From Crocinitomicaceae bacterium (GTDB lineage Bacteria > Bacteroidota > Bacteroidia > Flavobacteriales_D > Crocinitomicaceae), in NCBI GenBank assembly GCA_023957475.1, contig JAMLHA010000002.1, forward strand, positions 32,465-96,464: a stretch of 64,000 bases of DNA. Direction: 5' to 3'. The position numbers and the translations under genes were made by a program. Of the stretch, positions 11,073 through 17,588 are shown piece after piece; the stretch's first letter is position 1, and the number at the start of each line of letters is the position of its first letter. Under the pieces are notes generated by a model. The model was not told the origin of the DNA. It saw only the letters and a list, made by a program, of their open reading frames with translations, and did not search any database.

Positions 11073-11411
11073 TCAAAACAAGGTCAATTGTTGAGGTGGA
11101 GGAGTGGTTGCTTCGGGTTTTTTTCCGTAAAAAATTTCCATGTTGCCAAATTGTTTGTCTGTAATCGAAAAAACACCAACTTTTCCTTTATCAGGCAATA
11201 TCCGCTTGACATATTTTTTGTGTACGTCTGCATTTTCCACACTCTGGCAAAATCGCATGTAAATGGAAAACTGAAACATCATAAAACCACTTTCTAGTAA
11301 TTTTTTCCGAAACTGAGAGGCTTCTTTGCGTTCTTTCTTTGTTTCGGTCGGTAAATCAAATAATACAAATACCCACATTGTTCTGTATGCGTTAAATCGT
11401 GAATTATCCAT
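11073..11411 (-). CDS. cas2: CRISPR-associated endonuclease Cas2
   Basis: [25 protein letters not shown]; ATG at 11411 preferred over the TTG at 11426. Confidence 0.95.
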
Positions 11412-11418
11412 AAACGTG

Positions 11419-12309
11419 TTATTCAAATATAGGATAAGGAATTTTGCGAACTTCTTGGGAAAAACAACGGTTCAATCCTGCTGTTGTTGAACTTACAGCA
11501 TGAAACAAGGGGCGTGTCATTTTACCTATATTGACATCCAATTGCGGAAGTTTTAAAAGTTCTATTTTTTGCTCTTTTGTTAATTCGTCTGTTTTTTCCT
11601 TTTGAATCATTTGAAAAACAATCCAATCAACAAAAGGACGATACGGTTCCATAATATCATCGGCTAAACAAAATGCGTTGTATTGATTTTTGTGAAAAAG
11701 CCCAAATGATGGATGTAAGCCCGATGCTGTCAAAGCGCGAGCAACAATAGATCGCAATATGGCATAACCATAATTGAGTTGCGAATTGGGTGTGTTTCGT
11801 TCTTGTGATCGTATAAAATCTGTTCCATACAGTTGATTCCAGTAATGCCCTGCCGCTTGTCCCTCACAATTAGTGCTGTCATCACTGAGAACCTGTTCTC
11901 TCAACACATACAAACGCTGACTGTTGAGGTTTAATTTGTCCAATAGTAAAGCTTGATTGTGAATTTTAGCTTTGACAGTTTGTTGCCACAGTTGCTTTTT
12001 GAGTGGCGCACTTGCTTCCACTTGCGTTTTCATTACTTTGGTTTGTAATGTATTTGCATCAAAAGGAAGAAATAGACCGCTTGGCATGTAGTTTTTATCA
12101 CATGAAACCAATGCGATGTTTTCACTCATAAAAGCTTCTAAAACAGCCGTAGTTAGTGTGATTTGTGGATTTTCCAAAACAACCATTCCCAAATCCATGA
12201 TAGGAACGGAATGTTTGGTTCTGCTATCATCTTTGAGTTCTACTATAAGTTGGTTGTTTTGAACGCTCAGATGAGCAGGATTGCTGAAGTGAAGAGTGCG
12301 TTTTACCAT
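11419..12309 (-). CDS. cas1: Type II CRISPR-associated endonuclease Cas1
   Basis: [36 protein letters not shown]; no cas4 or csn2 in locus, so II-C. Confidence 0.96.
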
Positions 12310-12312
12310 TGT

Positions 12313-12339
12313 AAATAGTTTAACGTTTGTAAACTATTT
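12313..12339. promoter_or_regulatory. 10-bp inverted repeat directly upstream of the cas1 start
   Basis: AAATAGTTTA-N7-TAAACTATTT, 3 nt from the ATG. Confidence 0.5.
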
Positions 12340-12370
12340 TACCGGTATTAAATGAAAAGGTTACGTTTTC

Positions 12371-12799
12371 TTATTGATTTTTAATGAGTTGAACAGTTTG
12401 TTGGAGTTCGTCTAATCGTTTTTGATTGATAGAATAACCTTGTACTAAAACATCTTTTAGTTTTTGAGTTGCCCATTGACGAAATTGAGTACCTCGTTTT
12501 GAGTTAATTCGATAGCCAACAGATAAGATGGCGTCTAAATTGTACAATTTTACCTTTCTGTTTACTATGCGTTTTCCTTCTTTTTGAACTAACGAGGAAT
12601 ACTCGGTAGTTGCATTTTCTTCTAACTCTTCTTCTCTATATATATTTTTTAGATGCAAGCTTATAGTATCTGTGTCTTTATCGAATAACTCTGCCATCTG
12701 CTTTTGAGTGAGCCAAATCGTTTCTCTATCTAAATTCACTTGAATTTCTGTTCCCGTTTGAGTTTTATATATTTTTATTTCTTTTCCTCTTTTTTGCAT
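12371..12799 (-). CDS. RhuM-family protein, N-terminal DNA-binding-like domain only (142 aa)
   Basis: ETIWLTQKQMAELF, YNLDAILSVGYRINSKRGTQFRQWAT; ends shortly after, no Fic/Doc domain. Confidence 0.82.
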   Translation of the reverse strand: MQKRGKEIKIYKTQTGTEIQVNLDRETIWLTQKQMAELFDKDTDTISLHLKNIYREEELEENATTEYSSLVQKEGKRIVNRKVKLYNLDAILSVGYRINSKRGTQFRQWATQKLKDVLVQGYSINQKRLDELQQTVQLIKNQ

Positions 12800-12804
12800 A
12801 AGTC

Positions 12805-13104
12805 TTAGTTTACTCGGTAGCTGACTGATAATATAGCATCTAAATTGTAGTATTCAACCTGTTTAGTTTGTGTTTTCCTCTGTATAGCACCATGTTGAGT
12901 GGTATGTGCATTTTTTGCACATACCACTTTTTCTTCTAATTCTTCCGTTTTGAAAATGTTATTTATATGTTTGGTAATCAAAGTTCTATCTCGCTGAAAT
13001 AAATCTGCAATTTGTTGTTGGGTTAACCAAAAGGTTTCATTATCAAATTTCATATTAATTTGAGTTTGATTGTCGGAAGTCTGGTAGATGATGATTTTGT
13101 TCAT
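12805..13104 (-). CDS. Second, shorter RhuM-family paralog (99 aa), possibly pseudogenized
   Basis: ETFWLTQQQIADLF, YYNLDAILSVSYRVN then stop in the middle of the conserved YRVNS..TQFR motif. Confidence 0.72.
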   Translation of the reverse strand: MNKIIIYQTSDNQTQINMKFDNETFWLTQQQIADLFQRDRTLITKHINNIFKTEELEEKVVCAKNAHTTQHGAIQRKTQTKQVEYYNLDAILSVSYRVN

Positions 13105-13107
13105 TAA

Positions 13108-16100
13108 TTATGCTCTTGAGATGTTGCCTAATCTATCAACTTTGAGTTTGATGCAAATTTCTTTTTCTGAAGTAAATTCAATCTTATTCAATTGAGTAAA
13201 TTCTGTTTTATTCACAATAGCTGTAGAAACTGATTGTGGAATGCCATATAATCGTCCTCCCGTAAAACTCACAACTTTATAAATATTCTTAATACCTATT
13301 TCAGCATCATTCCCACTTGGCACATACACCAAATCATTCGGCGAAAGGCTGAACAACAAACGATGACCTTTTTCATTCAACTCAGGAACAGATGTCAAAC
13401 CTTGTTTTTGTCGTTCGATAACCACATTCAAAGGAATGGTGTCATAACTGCGTTTTCCGTCTTTGTCGGCGTAGATTCCGAAAAACAGATTCGTGCCTTT
13501 TGCCGCCTCTACATATTTTTCTGTTTTGTTGCCTGTTTCTCCTAATGCAAACTTACTTCCTTGTTCAAAAACCCTCACTTTCAGAATCGGCTGATGTTGT
13601 TTTCCGTCGTTATACAAAGTGATGCTTTGGTTCATTTCTTCGATTCCTTCGGGTGAAAATGCGATTTCAGGATTACCACCTTTTACTTTTAAATAATTCA
13701 ATAAAATTTTCTGAATTCCAGTGTCGGTAATCGAAGAAATTAATTTTTCGTTGAAAGAACTATCTAAACTTTTTCTTGTTGCGGTTAGAATTTTCCCTTT
13801 GGCAACTTTTATTCTGTCTAATTGCACTTTTCCCGAAACGGTTTCTTTATGCAACGGTTTCCTAATCGCCCAATTTGTTCCTTCTTGTTTTACAATTCCT
13901 TTTACTTTTTCGCCGTTTTTCTCGACATATTTTTCGTAATAATTGGTTGCTTTGTTGATGACACGAGTATTTTGTTTGAAACTTACCACGATACTTTCCA
14001 AAGCCTTTTTGGCATCGACAGTAAAGTTGTTCCAAGGTTTTAAAAAGTCTTTAAACGCTGTTTTTTCTTTTCCGTCTTTATCTCGATACGTTTCTTGTAT
14101 TCTCAATTTATGTTGTAAATCGTAGCGTTTCAAATCAGATTTTGCAGATTCGTTATTCAACAAATTAATGTGGTCACGAGTAGCGCACGCAATCACCAGA
14201 GCGTCCATTGCATGATGGCGATGGTCAATTCTTTTCTTTGAAAAACCTTTTGACAATTCAAGCGGAACAGTCGGTAAAAACTTCTGGTATTTTTCGTTCC
14301 AAGTTGTAAAATCAGTTGAATTGGTTAATTGATTCATTCGTTCAAAACGTGGTAAAATCAATTCGTTCCAAACTGCTTCTAATCCCCAGTCTAGTTTTAA
14401 ACGTGTGGTGATTTTCCCATTTCCAGGAAGTAAATTTTTAGAATTGTACCCATCATCGTTGCTTCCGTCTTTATCATCACGCACAATATTTGACAACAAG
14501 TTTGAAACATATTTGCTGATGTAACGTGTATCGTTCATTTGACGCTCAACCATTTTTTCAGGAATTTCTTCCATCAATAATTTGTTTCGTTTCGCACGAT
14601 TTTTAGCATAATGTTCTTTTACAAATTCTTCGTAATCCGCTATTTCAAGTATCTGAACAGCTTTGTTTCCAATGGTAACTTTTTCTCCGTGATGATTTTT
14701 GATGAATTCAAAACCAAGCTGTCTATCTTTCAGTTTGTTAACTTCAGCTTCACAAATCACTTTATTGTTAAATCCATCATCAAAAAATCGACTTTGTGGA
14801 ATGATATGTTCAATCTCATATTCGTGCGTAAAGAGCTTATTTAATGGAATGATTTGCCCTGTATAAGGTGATTTGTATTTTTGTTCTAACCAAAGTTTGT
14901 AGCGTTTTAAATCAGCACTTGAAGGTTGTGCCGTTTTGCTGATTTTAAGAATATCCTCATCAATTTCGGCTTCGGAACTCAATGCACCGTCTTCATAAAT
15001 TTTCAAAATTTCTTGTTGCATTGGCGAGTATGGACGAACATTTTCCACATTACTATCTAGAGCCATTTCTGCTAACAAAGCTTTAATGCGCAAATTGGTA
15101 TTTTCGTTTTCGGTAACCATGTTGGTTAACCTTTTTCGTTCATCAGCCGTATTTTTCATTTCACGACCTAATTCAATATGAATTTCAGAGAAGAAATCTT
15201 TAGCTCCGTTGCCATATTTGATCCAAATATCCTTTACTACACGTAATGTTTCTGTGATTACTTGCTCCACAATTGGGTTTCGTAAAGAGTGTTGTTTGAA
15301 CTCATTTAAAAAATCTTCCAAATCCTTAACTGAATTCCATTTGCCTGAAACAGATGCTTCGGAATGACGACCGTAAACAATGTATTGAGCCAACCACAAC
15401 GGCAATCCTTGGAAATCATTTTCAGATTTCAGATGATACTTTTCTGCTTTTTCACGGATTTTATTTTTGATGTTTTCATCGTATTCGCCTGTGATGATTT
15501 TCCCAATTCGGTCTTTTGAGCTTGTGTGAATTTCATTCCAATCCCAAGATTTCCCGAAACGCATCAAGGGTAACAATTTCTTAATTGCTTTTTCTGAAAA
15601 ACTGCCGTAATCACTTTTGAAAGGTGGAAATTTCTTGAAATTATCAAAGAAAGAATCTACATTCAGTTGATTTTTTTCTGCAAATTTCTTTAATGCTTTT
15701 TCGTATTCAATTTTATCATTTACAGAATAGATAATATGCCACAATGCCATTTCTTTATCAAAAGTCAAGAAATCCGCAGGAACATTCTCGGTTTTATCCA
15801 ATCTTGATTGAATTAAATATCTCGTTTCGTTGCACGGATAGGTTTTATCTTCCACATAATTCCAGCGGTATTTTTCGGTTTCCGCTTTCGGAACTTTCTT
15901 GATTTCTAATTTTCTTTTGAGCAAAAATTCGATTAATTGCTTTTGGTCAATTTCTTTTTTAGTATTCAAAAAATGCAATAATTCCTCCCAATCATTTTGA
16001 TTCGGCAAAAATTCATTGGTAACATTTACATCATCATCTTTTCGGTAAATAGCGAGATTTTGCATCCATTGCAATAACCTAAATTCCTGATAATAAGGAT

Positions 16101-17400
16101 TTGATTTTGAAACAACTTTTATAGGAAAAACAATACCCTCTTTTGATTTTCTACTCTCTAAGGAACAATTTGAAATGGAAGATTTTTGGCTACGCAAAGG
16201 TCGCTGATAAAAGATAATGTCATTCAAAAACAAATGCACAAAATCTTTCGCAGAAAGCAATTGCTGGTGTTGTTCATTGTTTCGATACAATTCTCGAACG
16301 CAATCCATTAACAAATTTTCATCTTGCAATTCCGAATGAAATTCTTTTTGTTTGGTAAGAATTTTAAAGAGTTCGTCTTTGTAAAATTTACGTTCAATCG
16401 TACGAACCAATTTTCCTTTTATTTTTTGTTTTGGATTTAATAAAAGGTTGTCGAAAATGTATGTCCCGACTGTTTTATTAGAGTTGCTAATATCTTTTTC
16501 TGATTTCTTTTTCAACAAAGTCCAATCATCAGCACTTGGTGCTCGAAAACTTCTTTTTACGCTTCCTTCTTTGTCTAATTTCTCCGTTCCGTCATCATTC
16601 AAATCGGTCGTAACAATAAATTCTTTGACTTTATCTTTCCAATCAAACAACTCCGTTTTACTTGAACGACGGTAAATCCAACCGTTTTCCAAATGCATTG
16701 AATACCAAGTCTCTCCTTTATTATTTTTAGTTTCATCCGCAACAACTTCAACCACTTTCAAAGAATGAAATTCTACTAATTTGTTCGGGTTTTCTTCTTC
16801 CTCCTCTCCACGCAATTGATAATAACCACGTTTCTGATTAAAATTCAGAATAATCCACGCCAATTCTTCTTTTTCAATTTTTTGAGTCAATGCTTTTTTA
16901 CGTAAATAGTAAATCGTCCAATCGTGAGGAATTAAACAATCATTGCCATTTTTATCTTTCAGAAATTCAGGTTGATATTCCTTAAAATCTTCCAACATTT
17001 CATAAAAAGAAGATTGAAACAAAAATCCATTTTGGGAATAAGCTAATTTAGGTTCTGTTTCAGGAATAAATTTTCCAAAGCGTTTGTCAAAATCAATTTG
17101 AGTATCATAATGTTCTGGCAAAAAACCTAACAAATGTAATACTCTGTGCAAACGCTCTCTTCTCAATAAATGGCGTTCTCTTAATCTACGAGTACCTCTG
17201 TACCCAGTACGTTCTGCTGTTTGAGAAACTGAATTTCCTTTGTCAAAGTCGCCCATAATCGCCGCATCCATCGGAATAATTCGACTTCCCATGCCGAGTA
17301 TCTCGCCTTGTTTATTTTCAAAGTCTTGTTGAACAAGTGCCCATCCTATCGAATTCGTTCCCAAATCCAATCCAAGTATTGTTTTATTTGTGTTTTCCAT
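13108..17400 (-). CDS. cas9: Type II-C Cas9 (large Bacteroidota type, 1430 aa)
   Basis: RuvC-I ILGLDLGTNSIGWA, Arg-rich bridge helix, HNH EIEHIIPQS...NKVIC, RuvC-III DHRHHAMDA; catalytic residues look intact. Confidence 0.97.
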   Translation of the reverse strand: MENTNKTILGLDLGTNSIGWALVQQDFENKQGEILGMGSRIIPMDAAIMGDFDKGNSVSQTAERTGYRGTRRLRERHLLRRERLHRVLHLLGFLPEHYDTQIDFDKRFGKFIPETEPKLAYSQNGFLFQSSFYEMLEDFKEYQPEFLKDKNGNDCLIPHDWTIYYLRKKALTQKIEKEELAWIILNFNQKRGYYQLRGEEEEENPNKLVEFHSLKVVEVVADETKNNKGETWYSMHLENGWIYRRSSKTELFDWKDKVKEFIVTTDLNDDGTEKLDKEGSVKRSFRAPSADDWTLLKKKSEKDISNSNKTVGTYIFDNLLLNPKQKIKGKLVRTIERKFYKDELFKILTKQKEFHSELQDENLLMDCVRELYRNNEQHQQLLSAKDFVHLFLNDIIFYQRPLRSQKSSISNCSLESRKSKEGIVFPIKVVSKSNPYYQEFRLLQWMQNLAIYRKDDDVNVTNEFLPNQNDWEELLHFLNTKKEIDQKQLIEFLLKRKLEIKKVPKAETEKYRWNYVEDKTYPCNETRYLIQSRLDKTENVPADFLTFDKEMALWHIIYSVNDKIEYEKALKKFAEKNQLNVDSFFDNFKKFPPFKSDYGSFSEKAIKKLLPLMRFGKSWDWNEIHTSSKDRIGKIITGEYDENIKNKIREKAEKYHLKSENDFQGLPLWLAQYIVYGRHSEASVSGKWNSVKDLEDFLNEFKQHSLRNPIVEQVITETLRVVKDIWIKYGNGAKDFFSEIHIELGREMKNTADERKRLTNMVTENENTNLRIKALLAEMALDSNVENVRPYSPMQQEILKIYEDGALSSEAEIDEDILKISKTAQPSSADLKRYKLWLEQKYKSPYTGQIIPLNKLFTHEYEIEHIIPQSRFFDDGFNNKVICEAEVNKLKDRQLGFEFIKNHHGEKVTIGNKAVQILEIADYEEFVKEHYAKNRAKRNKLLMEEIPEKMVERQMNDTRYISKYVSNLLSNIVRDDKDGSNDDGYNSKNLLPGNGKITTRLKLDWGLEAVWNELILPRFERMNQLTNSTDFTTWNEKYQKFLPTVPLELSKGFSKKRIDHRHHAMDALVIACATRDHINLLNNESAKSDLKRYDLQHKLRIQETYRDKDGKEKTAFKDFLKPWNNFTVDAKKALESIVVSFKQNTRVINKATNYYEKYVEKNGEKVKGIVKQEGTNWAIRKPLHKETVSGKVQLDRIKVAKGKILTATRKSLDSSFNEKLISSITDTGIQKILLNYLKVKGGNPEIAFSPEGIEEMNQSITLYNDGKQHQPILKVRVFEQGSKFALGETGNKTEKYVEAAKGTNLFFGIYADKDGKRSYDTIPLNVVIERQKQGLTSVPELNEKGHRLLFSLSPNDLVYVPSGNDAEIGIKNIYKVVSFTGGRLYGIPQSVSTAIVNKTEFTQLNKIEFTSEKEICIKLKVDRLGNISRA

Positions 17401-17495: not shown

Positions 17496-17503
17496 TATAT
17501 TTG
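17496..17503 (+). promoter_or_regulatory. Bacteroidota -7 promoter box for tracrRNA
   Basis: TATATTTG matches TAnnTTTG just upstream of the anti-repeat. Confidence 0.7.
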
Positions 17504-17505
17504 AA

Positions 17506-17588
17506 TATTGAAAGCAAATCACAATAAGGATTATTCCGTTGTGAAAACATTTGGGTTGCCTCTTGTCCACAATCAGGAGGTTTTTTTA
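17506..17588 (+). ncRNA. tracrRNA
   Basis: TATTGAAAGCAAATCACAA is the reverse complement of repeat nt 2-20; followed by TAAGGATTATTCCGTTGTGAAAAC nexus-like segment and a CCTCTTG/CAGGAGG hairpin with T7 tract. Confidence 0.9.

What the first reader, a model, noticed from the sequence alone, without database searches (positions are those of the whole stretch)
12371..13104. Tandem minimal RhuM-family genes embedded between cas9 and cas1
Two paralogous short ORFs (99 and 142 aa) start 3 nt after the cas9 stop and are 5 nt apart, so they are likely co-transcribed with cas9. Both keep only the N-terminal predicted DNA-binding region and lack the Fic/Doc-type C-terminus often attached in this family; the first stops inside the conserved motif. 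Accessory genes at large Bacteroidota II-C loci can modulate Cas9 (PcrIIC1 in Chryseobacterium is the precedent). Inference: candidate Cas9 or Cas1-Cas2 cofactor or cas regulator, possibly a heterodimer; decayed cargo is the alternative.
Basis: partly seen in the sequence, partly recalled or inferred. Interest (0 to 1): 0.7.

Follow-up and report, generated by a model that had tools for sequence, protein, structure and literature searches.

The report
Toxin-less RhuM relics in Cas9 operon
Two short genes wedged between cas9 and cas1 are the leftover front halves of a mobile toxin-type defence gene (RhuM-Doc) that often sits inside bacterial immune operons; the toxin half is gone here, so they are most likely relics, not new Cas9 helpers.

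Summary
Two homologous ORFs (99 and 142 aa, 43% identical) lie 3 nt after the cas9 stop, 5 nt apart and 61 nt before cas1. Both are only the N-terminal module of RhuM-family proteins (PF13310; PADLOC PDC-S05/S23).

Relatives show what they come from. In other Bacteroidota II-C loci the same slot holds intact 320-340-aa genes made of this module plus a Fic/Doc toxin domain or the full RhuM domain. ORF2 ends with the exact last 21 nt and 3' flank of the intact gene in a same-genus genome. The join falls on a 9-nt motif (CAACTCATT) that occurs twice in that gene, so an in-frame loss of about 184 codons removed the toxin. ORF1 belongs to a different, older lineage and is cut inside the conserved core.

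The same cassette, including the short-plus-long tandem, sits between hsdS and hsdR of type I R-M operons. The cas9|cas1 slot of relatives also carries MazF, HicB, Bro-N and HIRAN genes. All stages of decay are seen, and this genome has no intact RhuM.

A role as regulator or partner is about 0.2. A Cas9 cofactor role is unlikely. RhuM ORFs in this slot were noted in B. fragilis in 2017.

The parts
13108..17400 (-). cas9 (1430 aa), type II-C, first gene of the operon
   Evidence: ORF list. 52-87% identical to Cas9 of other Bacteroidota II-C loci.
12805..13104 (-). ORF1, 99 aa: 5' fragment of a RhuM-N module (the subtype with a 3-residue TTQHGAIxGK insert), cut inside the YNLDAIxSVGYRVNS motif. 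It lacks the conserved FRQWATQRLK helix.
   Evidence: Groups with L037 pos2 and L044, not with ORF2. The AF2 model of ORF2 places helix 101-123 beyond the cut.
12371..12799 (-). ORF2, 142 aa: complete RhuM-N module joined in frame to the last three codons and stop of a full-length RhuM-N-Doc gene. The linker and Fic/Doc domain are deleted.
   Evidence: Sister to L091 pos2 with 98/97 support.
12383..12391 (-). Deletion junction: the 9-nt motif CAACTCATT (Q-L-I). In the intact same-genus gene it occurs twice (CAACTTATT at codons 134-136, CAACTCATT at codons 318-320), 184 codons apart.
   Evidence: Codon-level comparison of the ORF2 tail with L088 and L087.
12310..12370 (-). 61-nt spacer between the ORF2 stop and the cas1 start, homologous to the spacer that follows the intact RhuM-Doc gene in L088
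   Evidence: blastn: window tail, spacer and cas1 start against L088, 75% over 116 nt.
11419..12309 (-). cas1 (296 aa)
11073..11426 (-). cas2 (117 aa)
12897..12929 (+). Near-perfect 14-bp-stem hairpin (perfect over at least 12 bp) followed by a T-run, reading as a terminator on the + strand (antisense to the operon), inside ORF1. Role unknown.
   Evidence: unique in the genome.

Best explanation
ORF1 and ORF2 are the remains, without effector domains, of RhuM-family defence or toxin cassettes that lodge between cas9 and cas1 in Bacteroidota type II-C operons. The intact gene has two parts. The first is a roughly 135-aa N-terminal module, predicted to be winged-helix or Bro-N-like and presumably a sensing or binding module. 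The second is a C-terminal effector, either a Doc-type Fic domain (motif HPF(S/T)DGNKR) or the RhuM-C domain.

Shown: ORF2 carries a complete N module. It runs in frame into the last 21 nt (QLIKNQ-stop) and the 3' flank of the intact gene as found in a same-genus genome. The join lies on a 9-nt motif that the intact gene contains twice, so about 184 codons holding the linker and Doc domain are missing. ORF1 is the 5' 99 codons of a different RhuM lineage and is cut within the conserved core.

Inferred: an older resident gene was truncated when a second cassette arrived. One possible route is homology-facilitated illegitimate recombination anchored on the conserved 3' side. The newcomer then lost its toxin domain by slippage or recombination between the two QLI-coding repeats. 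Losing the toxin is harmless, whereas losing the N part first might not be, which would explain why N-only forms accumulate.

Both ORFs are probably still transcribed passively with cas9-cas1-cas2. They have no toxin output and no required role in CRISPR immunity.
For: ORF2 derives from an intact gene.
- Its tail, CAA CTC ATT AAA AAT CAA TAA, is identical to the 3' end of the intact 323-aa gene of same-genus G005 (L088), and the downstream spacer and cas1 start are homologous. L088 has QLI-coding 9-mers at codons 134-136 and 318-320.

Intact genes occupy the same slot elsewhere.
- N + Fic/DOC: L088, L087 pos2, L044, L037 pos2, L093 pos2.
- N + full PF13310: L036, L045, L081.
- The lost domain is Doc-like (Pfam Fic; PDB 9vzc_A, death-on-curing family, E 7e-4).

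Every stage of decay is seen in this slot.
- L008: a 32-aa N remnant plus a 78-aa Doc fragment.
- L062 (66 aa) and L079 (45 aa).
- L091 pos2: split into 191 + 121 aa.

This genome has four RhuM fragments and no intact gene.

The genes move and turn over.
- Position-1 short genes are polyphyletic. ORF1 is 59-63% identical to Sphingobacteriaceae genes but 43% to the same-genus gene.
- ORF2 is 74% identical to L091 pos2, although the cas1 genes of those two loci are only 44% identical.

The cassette is not specific to Cas9.
- The ten best phylum-wide homologues are not near cas genes.
- Three that I examined lie between hsdS and hsdR, one as a [127 aa][322 aa N-Doc] tandem.

The slot is a cargo hotspot.
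- 24 of 76 loci carry inserts: 9 RhuM, 4 Bro-N, and MazF (in the closest relative, L007), HicB, HIRAN and DUF6036.

Across Bacteroidota about one fifth of RhuM-N hits are truncated, at widely scattered lengths from 127 to 293 aa (my tally from the listed rows).
Against: - Both ORFs are open and keep every residue that is invariant across the family. Their terminal branches are no longer than those of intact relatives. Either the truncations are recent or the N modules are still under constraint.
- ORF2 ends at the module boundary, as do at least six other N-only genes of 132-155 aa. This is not what purely random decay predicts, although repeat-mediated deletion and survivorship could produce it.
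- Tandems of [N-only][N-Doc] recur in several independent loci, and single proteins with two N modules exist. Paired N modules may therefore have a function.
- The direct ancestor of ORF2 is not available. The repeat pair was observed in a relative of another sub-lineage, so a chimeric join (incoming N module to resident tail) is equally possible.
Confidence: 0.6

Rival explanations
1. The N-only proteins are functional on their own. They could be antitoxin-like or dominant-negative partners, or co-sensors, that pair through their N modules with full-length RhuM-Doc/RhuM proteins. They could also be DNA-binding regulators. On this view the window keeps the regulatory half after toxin loss, for example as protection against incoming RhuM toxins or as a cas-operon regulator.
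For: The [short N-only][long N-Doc] tandem recurs after cas9 in L087, L037, L093-L098 (one protein seen on 20 contigs) and L091. It also occurs between hsdS and hsdR in L099. Natural N-N-effector fusions exist: P0003, P0029, P0084, P0141. N-only genes end at the module boundary. Small families of N-only variants keep their length: 142-aa P0192/P0201/P0213 and 148-aa P0190/P0195/P0205. ORF1 and ORF2 keep the invariant residues. The literature reports two RhuM ORFs in this slot in most type II-C-bearing B. fragilis strains (PMC5704556).
Against: Position-1 genes are polyphyletic with different tails, so there is no conserved short-partner family. Intact N-Doc genes also occur singly (L088, L044, L100, L106), so the short partner is not required. 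This genome has no full-length RhuM to partner with. ORF1 lacks the most conserved helix. Pairwise dN/dS of about 0.1 cannot be assigned to the period after truncation, because synonymous sites are saturated.
Confidence: 0.22
2. Dedicated CRISPR accessory factors: ORF1/ORF2 bind Cas9 or Cas1-Cas2 and modulate interference or acquisition, as PcrIIC1 does in Chryseobacterium.
For: The ORFs are tightly coupled in the operon (gaps of 3 nt and 5 nt). No Bacteroidota -7 box (TAnnTTTG) lies on the - strand between the cas9 stop and the cas1 start. RhuM-N genes fill this exact slot in 9 of 76 surveyed II-C loci across several orders, against roughly 5e-4 expected per locus from their genomic density.
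Against: The same family is embedded just as tightly in type I R-M operons (PMC3710099). One PDC-S05 (RhuM-domain) candidate system on its own protected E. coli against T7, T5 and T4 (bioRxiv 10.1101/2024.09.26.614923). Most II-C loci have nothing in the slot, and others hold unrelated TA-type cargo. The closest Cas9 relative (87% identical, L007) has MazF there instead. The genes decay often. No PIN or other nuclease domain was found.
Confidence: 0.07
3. The segment is kept for an RNA-level or spacing role rather than for its proteins. It might preserve translational coupling or cas1 expression signals. Alternatively, the strong + strand hairpin terminator inside ORF1 might stop antisense read-through from the convergently transcribed CRISPR array.
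For: A near-perfect 14-bp-stem hairpin plus T-run lies at 12897-12929 on the + strand and is unique in the genome. The tracrRNA signals suggest the array is read on the + strand, towards the cas genes. The in-frame deletion preserved the native stop and the spacer before cas1.
Against: In 52 of 76 related loci cas9 abuts cas1 with no such segment. The hairpin is absent from the nearest ORF1 homologues, whose residues differ in that stretch. Nothing was tested experimentally.
Confidence: 0.05

Closest known systems
RhuM family (Pfam PF13310; PADLOC candidates PDC-S05 / PDC-S23)
   Same: Both ORFs match the family's N-terminal region. ORF2 is above the Pfam cut-off. One PDC-S05 candidate system with a RhuM domain was reported to protect E. 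coli against T7, T5 and T4 (bioRxiv 10.1101/2024.09.26.614923).
   Different: Only the first roughly 70 of 252 Pfam positions are present. There is no RhuM-C and no Fic/Doc domain, so the presumed effector part is absent.
RhuM-domain ORFs between cas1 and cas9 of Bacteroides fragilis type II-C loci (Tajkarimi & Wexler 2017, PMC5704556)
   Same: Same slot and same family, and two ORFs are reported there as well. Function unknown.
   Different: A different order (here Flavobacteriales, Crocinitomicaceae, by Cas1 relatives). I could not inspect the B. fragilis genes, so I do not know whether they are intact, split or N-only.
RhuM/Doc genes embedded in type I R-M operons (Anantharaman et al. 2013, PMC3710099)
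   Same: Homologues 52-61% identical to ORF2 lie between hsdS and hsdR with overlapping junctions, one as a [127 aa][322 aa] tandem. That paper proposes RhuM as a toxin layer in multi-level defence.
   Different: Here the host operon is CRISPR-Cas9, and the toxin domain has been deleted.
Doc of the Phd-Doc toxin-antitoxin system (Fic/DOC, PF02661)
   Same: The domain lost from ORF2's ancestor is Doc-like: motif HPF(S/T)DGNKR, Pfam Fic, and a PDB death-on-curing match. From general knowledge, P1 Doc blocks translation by phosphorylating EF-Tu.
   Different: In these genes Doc is fused behind the RhuM-N module rather than paired with Phd. The window ORFs contain none of it.
PcrIIC1, the pro-CRISPR factor of Chryseobacterium II-C loci (Zhang et al. 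2024; summarised in PMC12669027 and PMC13153721)
   Same: A non-Cas gene encoded inside a Bacteroidota II-C locus.
   Different: PcrIIC1 is described as a predicted PIN-domain nuclease that forms a complex with Cas9. ORF1 and ORF2 have no such domain, belong to a family that also lives in R-M operons, and are truncated.

Membership tests
RhuM family (PF13310) | Score above Pfam's gathering cut-off (33.7 bits) | tested here: met
   ORF2 scores 86.7 bits. ORF1 scores only 24.5 bits and fails on its own, but its homology to ORF2 (E 6e-25) and to PADLOC RhuM models (E 5e-37) places it in the family as a fragment.
RhuM family (PF13310) | Presence of the whole roughly 250-position RhuM domain | tested here: not met
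   ORF2 covers profile positions 2-71 and ORF1 covers 2-37 of 252. Intact relatives L036 and L045 cover positions 1-249.
PADLOC PDC-S05 / PDC-S23 candidate defence genes | Match to the PADLOC HMMs | tested here: met
   ORF2 E 7.6e-62 and ORF1 E 4.9e-37. Short models of 138-152 positions are matched end to end by ORF2; models of about 330 positions are matched only on their first roughly 145 positions.
PADLOC PDC-S05 / PDC-S23 candidate defence genes | Confers protection against phage | not testable with these tools
   Reported for one PDC-S05 representative. Nothing is known for N-only forms.
Fic/DOC toxins (PF02661) | Fic/Doc domain with motif HxFx(D/E)GN(G/K)R | tested here: not met
   No Fic hit in either ORF. 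The motif HPF(S/T)DGNKR is present in L088, L087 pos2, L044, L037 pos2 and L093 pos2 but is deleted here.
Bro-N / winged-helix DNA-binding domains (PF02498) | Significant sequence or fold match | tested here: inconclusive
   The window ORFs have no Pfam Bro-N hit. Relatives give sub-threshold hits (E 0.0037 and 0.00063). hhalign against cas-linked Bro-N proteins gives probability 2%. Foldseek against PDB finds nothing below E 0.08. DNA binding remains a prediction.
Cas9 accessory (pro-CRISPR) factors such as PcrIIC1 | Encoded within the cas operon | tested here: met
   Gaps of 3 nt, 5 nt and 61 nt between cas9, ORF1, ORF2 and cas1.
Cas9 accessory (pro-CRISPR) factors such as PcrIIC1 | Association specific to CRISPR loci and conserved with them | tested here: not met
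   The slot is empty in 52 of 76 loci and holds other cargo in 15. The ten closest phylum-wide homologues are not cas-linked, and three examined lie in type I R-M operons.
Cas9 accessory (pro-CRISPR) factors such as PcrIIC1 | Physical complex with Cas9 and enhancement of its activity | not testable with these tools
   No multimer prediction or biochemistry was available.

The most novel reading that the evidence does not exclude
The RhuM-N module is a portable sensor or adaptor that works in pairs. Short N-only proteins would be selected partners (antitoxin-like gatekeepers or co-sensors) of RhuM-Doc toxins that are wired into immune operons such as Cas9 II-C and type I R-M, forming a back-up abortive-infection layer. 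The window would then retain the gatekeeper half, possibly still binding DNA, a phage protein or Cas9.
Probability: 0.2. Interest if true: 0.7.

Novelty: new member of a known kind. Interest (0 to 1): 0.35.

Why it matters
For this window the main result is a correction: the two ORFs should be annotated as truncated RhuM-family fragments, not as candidate Cas9 cofactors. The wider pattern may deserve a dedicated study. A RhuM-N-Doc/RhuM toxin cassette is repeatedly exchanged between, and decays within, one fixed slot of two unrelated immune operons: cas9|cas1, and in the type I R-M operons examined hsdS|hsdR. It often leaves N-only stubs upstream of a fresh copy. If the intact cassette proves to be a CRISPR-coupled abortive-infection or addiction module, about one in eight Bacteroidota II-C loci would have a second defence layer. 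The N-only stubs would then be natural tools for dissecting its regulation.

Tried and rejected
- Fold identification: the AF2 model of ORF2 (pLDDT 74) has no PDB fold match below E 0.08. A profile search of PDB sequences found nothing.
- Full-length N-Doc model (L044): the C-terminal half has pLDDT below 50, so nothing can be said about N-Doc contacts.
- Bro-N relationship by hhalign: probability 2%, only a motif-level resemblance.
- dN/dS (NG86): about 0.07-0.13 for ORF2 and ORF1 against relatives, but synonymous sites are saturated (pS 0.62-0.81) and the pairs span periods before the truncation, so it is not decisive.
- Closest ORF2 homologue (P0152, 80% identical): it lies in a [132 aa][143 aa] tandem on a 1-kb contig, but its DNA was not retrievable.
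- Left junction of ORF2: alignment to L091 and L087 loses homology upstream of ORF2 codon 6, so the event that truncated ORF1 could not be reconstructed.
- tracrRNA in the ORF region: rejected. The anti-repeat lies upstream of cas9 at 17506-17524.
- The ORF1 hairpin as a dispersed repeat related to the 48-nt insert in the array: rejected. It is unique in the genome.
- Read-through or frameshift fusion of ORF1 and ORF2: ORF2 is offset by 8 nt with no slippery site, and ORF1 lacks the module's second half, unlike natural N-N fusions.

Full report
**Anatomy**

On the - strand the window carries cas9 (13108-17400), ORF1 (12805-13104, 99 aa), ORF2 (12371-12799, 142 aa), cas1 (11419-12309) and cas2 (11073-11426), followed by the CRISPR array. 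The gaps are 3 nt (cas9 to ORF1), 5 nt (ORF1 to ORF2) and 61 nt (ORF2 to cas1). ORF1 and ORF2 are 43% identical (E 6e-25).

ORF2 passes the Pfam RhuM threshold (86.7 bits) but covers only profile positions 2-71 of 252. ORF1 is sub-threshold at 24.5 bits. Both match PADLOC PDC-S05/PDC-S23 models very strongly, always on the N-terminal part. NCBIfam and PHROGs add nothing.

**What the intact gene looks like**

I surveyed 80 Bacteroidota II-C loci found with Cas1 and added loci from relatives. In many of them a RhuM-type gene begins within a few nucleotides of the cas9 stop and ends just before cas1. There are two full-length architectures, and they share the same roughly 135-aa N module.
- N + Fic/DOC: L088 (same genus, 323 aa), L087 pos2, L044, L037 pos2, L093 pos2.
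- N + complete RhuM domain: L036, L045, L081.

The Fic part is Doc-like, with motif HPF(S/T)DGNKR and a match to a PDB death-on-curing family protein at E 7e-4. Large-scale searches show a huge family: 24,403 representatives at E<=0.001. Some proteins carry two N modules in tandem ahead of yet another C-terminal domain. The N module therefore looks like a portable domain attached to interchangeable effectors.

**Origin of ORF2**

ORF2's last 21 nt (CAA CTC ATT AAA AAT CAA TAA, QLIKNQ-stop) are identical to the end of the intact L088 gene. The spacer and cas1 start that follow are homologous, at 75% over 116 nt. L088 contains the QLI-coding 9-mer twice: at codons 134-136, right after the N module (...LRQTVQLIQTSIS...; ORF2 has ...LQQTVQLI...), and at codons 318-320 (...IIQLIKNQ*). 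ORF2 reads ...QQTVQLIKNQ*.

ORF2 is therefore a full-length gene with 184 codons, the linker plus Doc, removed in frame at a direct repeat. Alternatively, an incoming N module was joined to the resident tail at that microhomology. Similar in-frame stubs that keep the native tail occur in L023 (...DLT|QLINSR*) and probably in L087 pos1 (QLIHK*).

**Origin of ORF1**

ORF1 belongs to another sub-lineage, one with a 3-residue TTQHGAIxGK insert. It is 59-63% identical to Sphingobacteriaceae genes but 43% to the same-genus gene. It ends after YRVN, inside the family's most conserved motif, and so lacks the FRQWATQRLK helix (helix 101-123 in the AF2 model). No remnant of the missing part follows it.

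**Comparative pattern**

ORF2 is sister to the second gene of L091 (98/97 support, 74% identity), although the two loci's Cas1 proteins are only 44% identical. RhuM cassettes therefore move between II-C loci independently of the adaptation genes.

Short-plus-long tandems recur:
- L087: 139 + 323 aa.
- L037: 155 + 341 aa.
- L093-L098: 142 + 323 aa, the same protein on 20 contigs.
- L091: 148 aa + a gene split into 191 and 121 aa.
- The P0152 contig: 132 + 143 aa.

The upstream short genes are polyphyletic and have different tails. This fits serial arrival of new cassettes that leave a 5' stub of the old one better than it fits one conserved two-gene system.

Decay is common. L008 keeps 32 aa of N plus a Doc fragment, and L062 and L079 keep 66 and 45 aa. 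This genome holds four RhuM fragments and no intact copy.

**Specificity for CRISPR**

Of 76 loci with cas9 upstream of cas1, 52 have no insert. The other 24 have inserts: 9 with RhuM-N, 4 with 275-aa Bro-N proteins, and others with MazF (in L007, whose Cas9 is 87% identical to the window's), HicB, HIRAN or DUF6036 nucleotidyltransferase genes.

In a 401-genome phylum sample, 132 genomes have RhuM-N. None of the ten best hits is next to cas9 or cas1. The three I examined lie between hsdS and hsdR with overlapping junctions, one as a [127 aa][322 aa N-Doc] tandem.

This agrees with the literature. RhuM and Doc are proposed toxin layers inside R-M operons (PMC3710099). One PDC-S05 (RhuM-domain) candidate system on its own protected E. 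coli against T7, T5 and T4. Two RhuM-domain ORFs between cas1 and cas9 were noted in most type II-C-bearing B. fragilis strains (PMC5704556).

**Interpretation**

The best-supported reading (about 0.6) is decayed defence cargo: an old stub (ORF1) plus a newer cassette that lost its Doc toxin (ORF2). Both are probably still co-transcribed, because no Bacteroidota -7 box lies on the - strand between cas9 and cas1 and no - strand terminator was found there.

A functional N-only partner or regulator (about 0.2) is not excluded. Three things favour it: the invariant residues are retained, N-only genes end at the module boundary, and paired N modules recur. A dedicated Cas9 or Cas1-Cas2 cofactor is unlikely (about 0.07).

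Several tests were uninformative: fold searches, the full-length model, the Bro-N profile comparison and dN/dS. RNA evidence was unavailable.

**Earlier notes from this scan**

One note reports a Fic-fold gene between cas9 and cas1 in II-B loci of another genome. It is an untested lead suggesting that Fic-type cargo in this slot may be broader than II-C.

Noticed in passing
window 12897-12929 (+): A near-perfect 14-bp-stem inverted repeat (perfect over at least 12 bp; GAGTGGTATGTGCA-TTTTT-TGCACATACCACTT) followed by a T-run lies inside ORF1. It reads as an intrinsic terminator on the + strand, antisense to the cas operon. It is unique in the genome and absent from the nearest ORF1 homologues.
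   Followed up: partly
window 17496-17581 (+): Likely tracrRNA gene on the + strand upstream of cas9: a -7-like box TATATTTG (17496-17503), a 19/19 anti-repeat match (17506-17524) and a terminator-like hairpin (17558-17581). This implies the array is transcribed on the + strand, convergent with cas2-cas1.
   Followed up: partly
G000 C23:164294-164566 (L003) and C1:275561-275683 (L005): Two further RhuM relics elsewhere in the genome. One is an N-module fragment with an in-frame TAA that is cut after YNLDVI. The other is a roughly 40-aa piece of the RhuM-C domain between housekeeping genes. The genome has no intact RhuM.
   Followed up: partly
L007:3061-5001 (Fluviicola sp. MAG, Cas9 87% identical): The closest relative's cas9|cas1 slot holds three other ORFs, including a MazF/PemK toxin directly before cas1. 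Cargo in this slot turns over rapidly within the genus.
   Followed up: partly
L030, L057, L063, L081 (cas9|cas1 slot): A well-conserved 275-aa Bro-N domain protein (71-75% identical between loci) occupies the same slot in four Bacteroidales loci. In L081 it sits directly after an intact RhuM gene.
   Followed up: no
L099:4841-10696 (G224): A type I R-M operon reads hsdS - 127-aa RhuM-N stub - 322-aa RhuM-N-Doc - hsdR with overlapping or 3-nt junctions. This is the same short-plus-long tandem as in the Cas9 loci.
   Followed up: partly
P0003, P0029, P0084, P0141 (408-435 aa): Single proteins with two tandem RhuM-N modules followed by a roughly 170-aa domain with no Pfam hit. That domain carries an HDR(F/Y)(L/I)IID...G(A/T)SL motif that reminds me of PLD-type nucleases (from memory, not tested).
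   Followed up: no
L091:1900-8200 (GCA_964653095): This locus looks like a decaying II-C system. Cas9 similarity is spread over several ORFs (599, 233 and 171 aa called). The RhuM-Doc gene is split into 191 and 121 aa, while cas1 and cas2 are intact.
   Followed up: no
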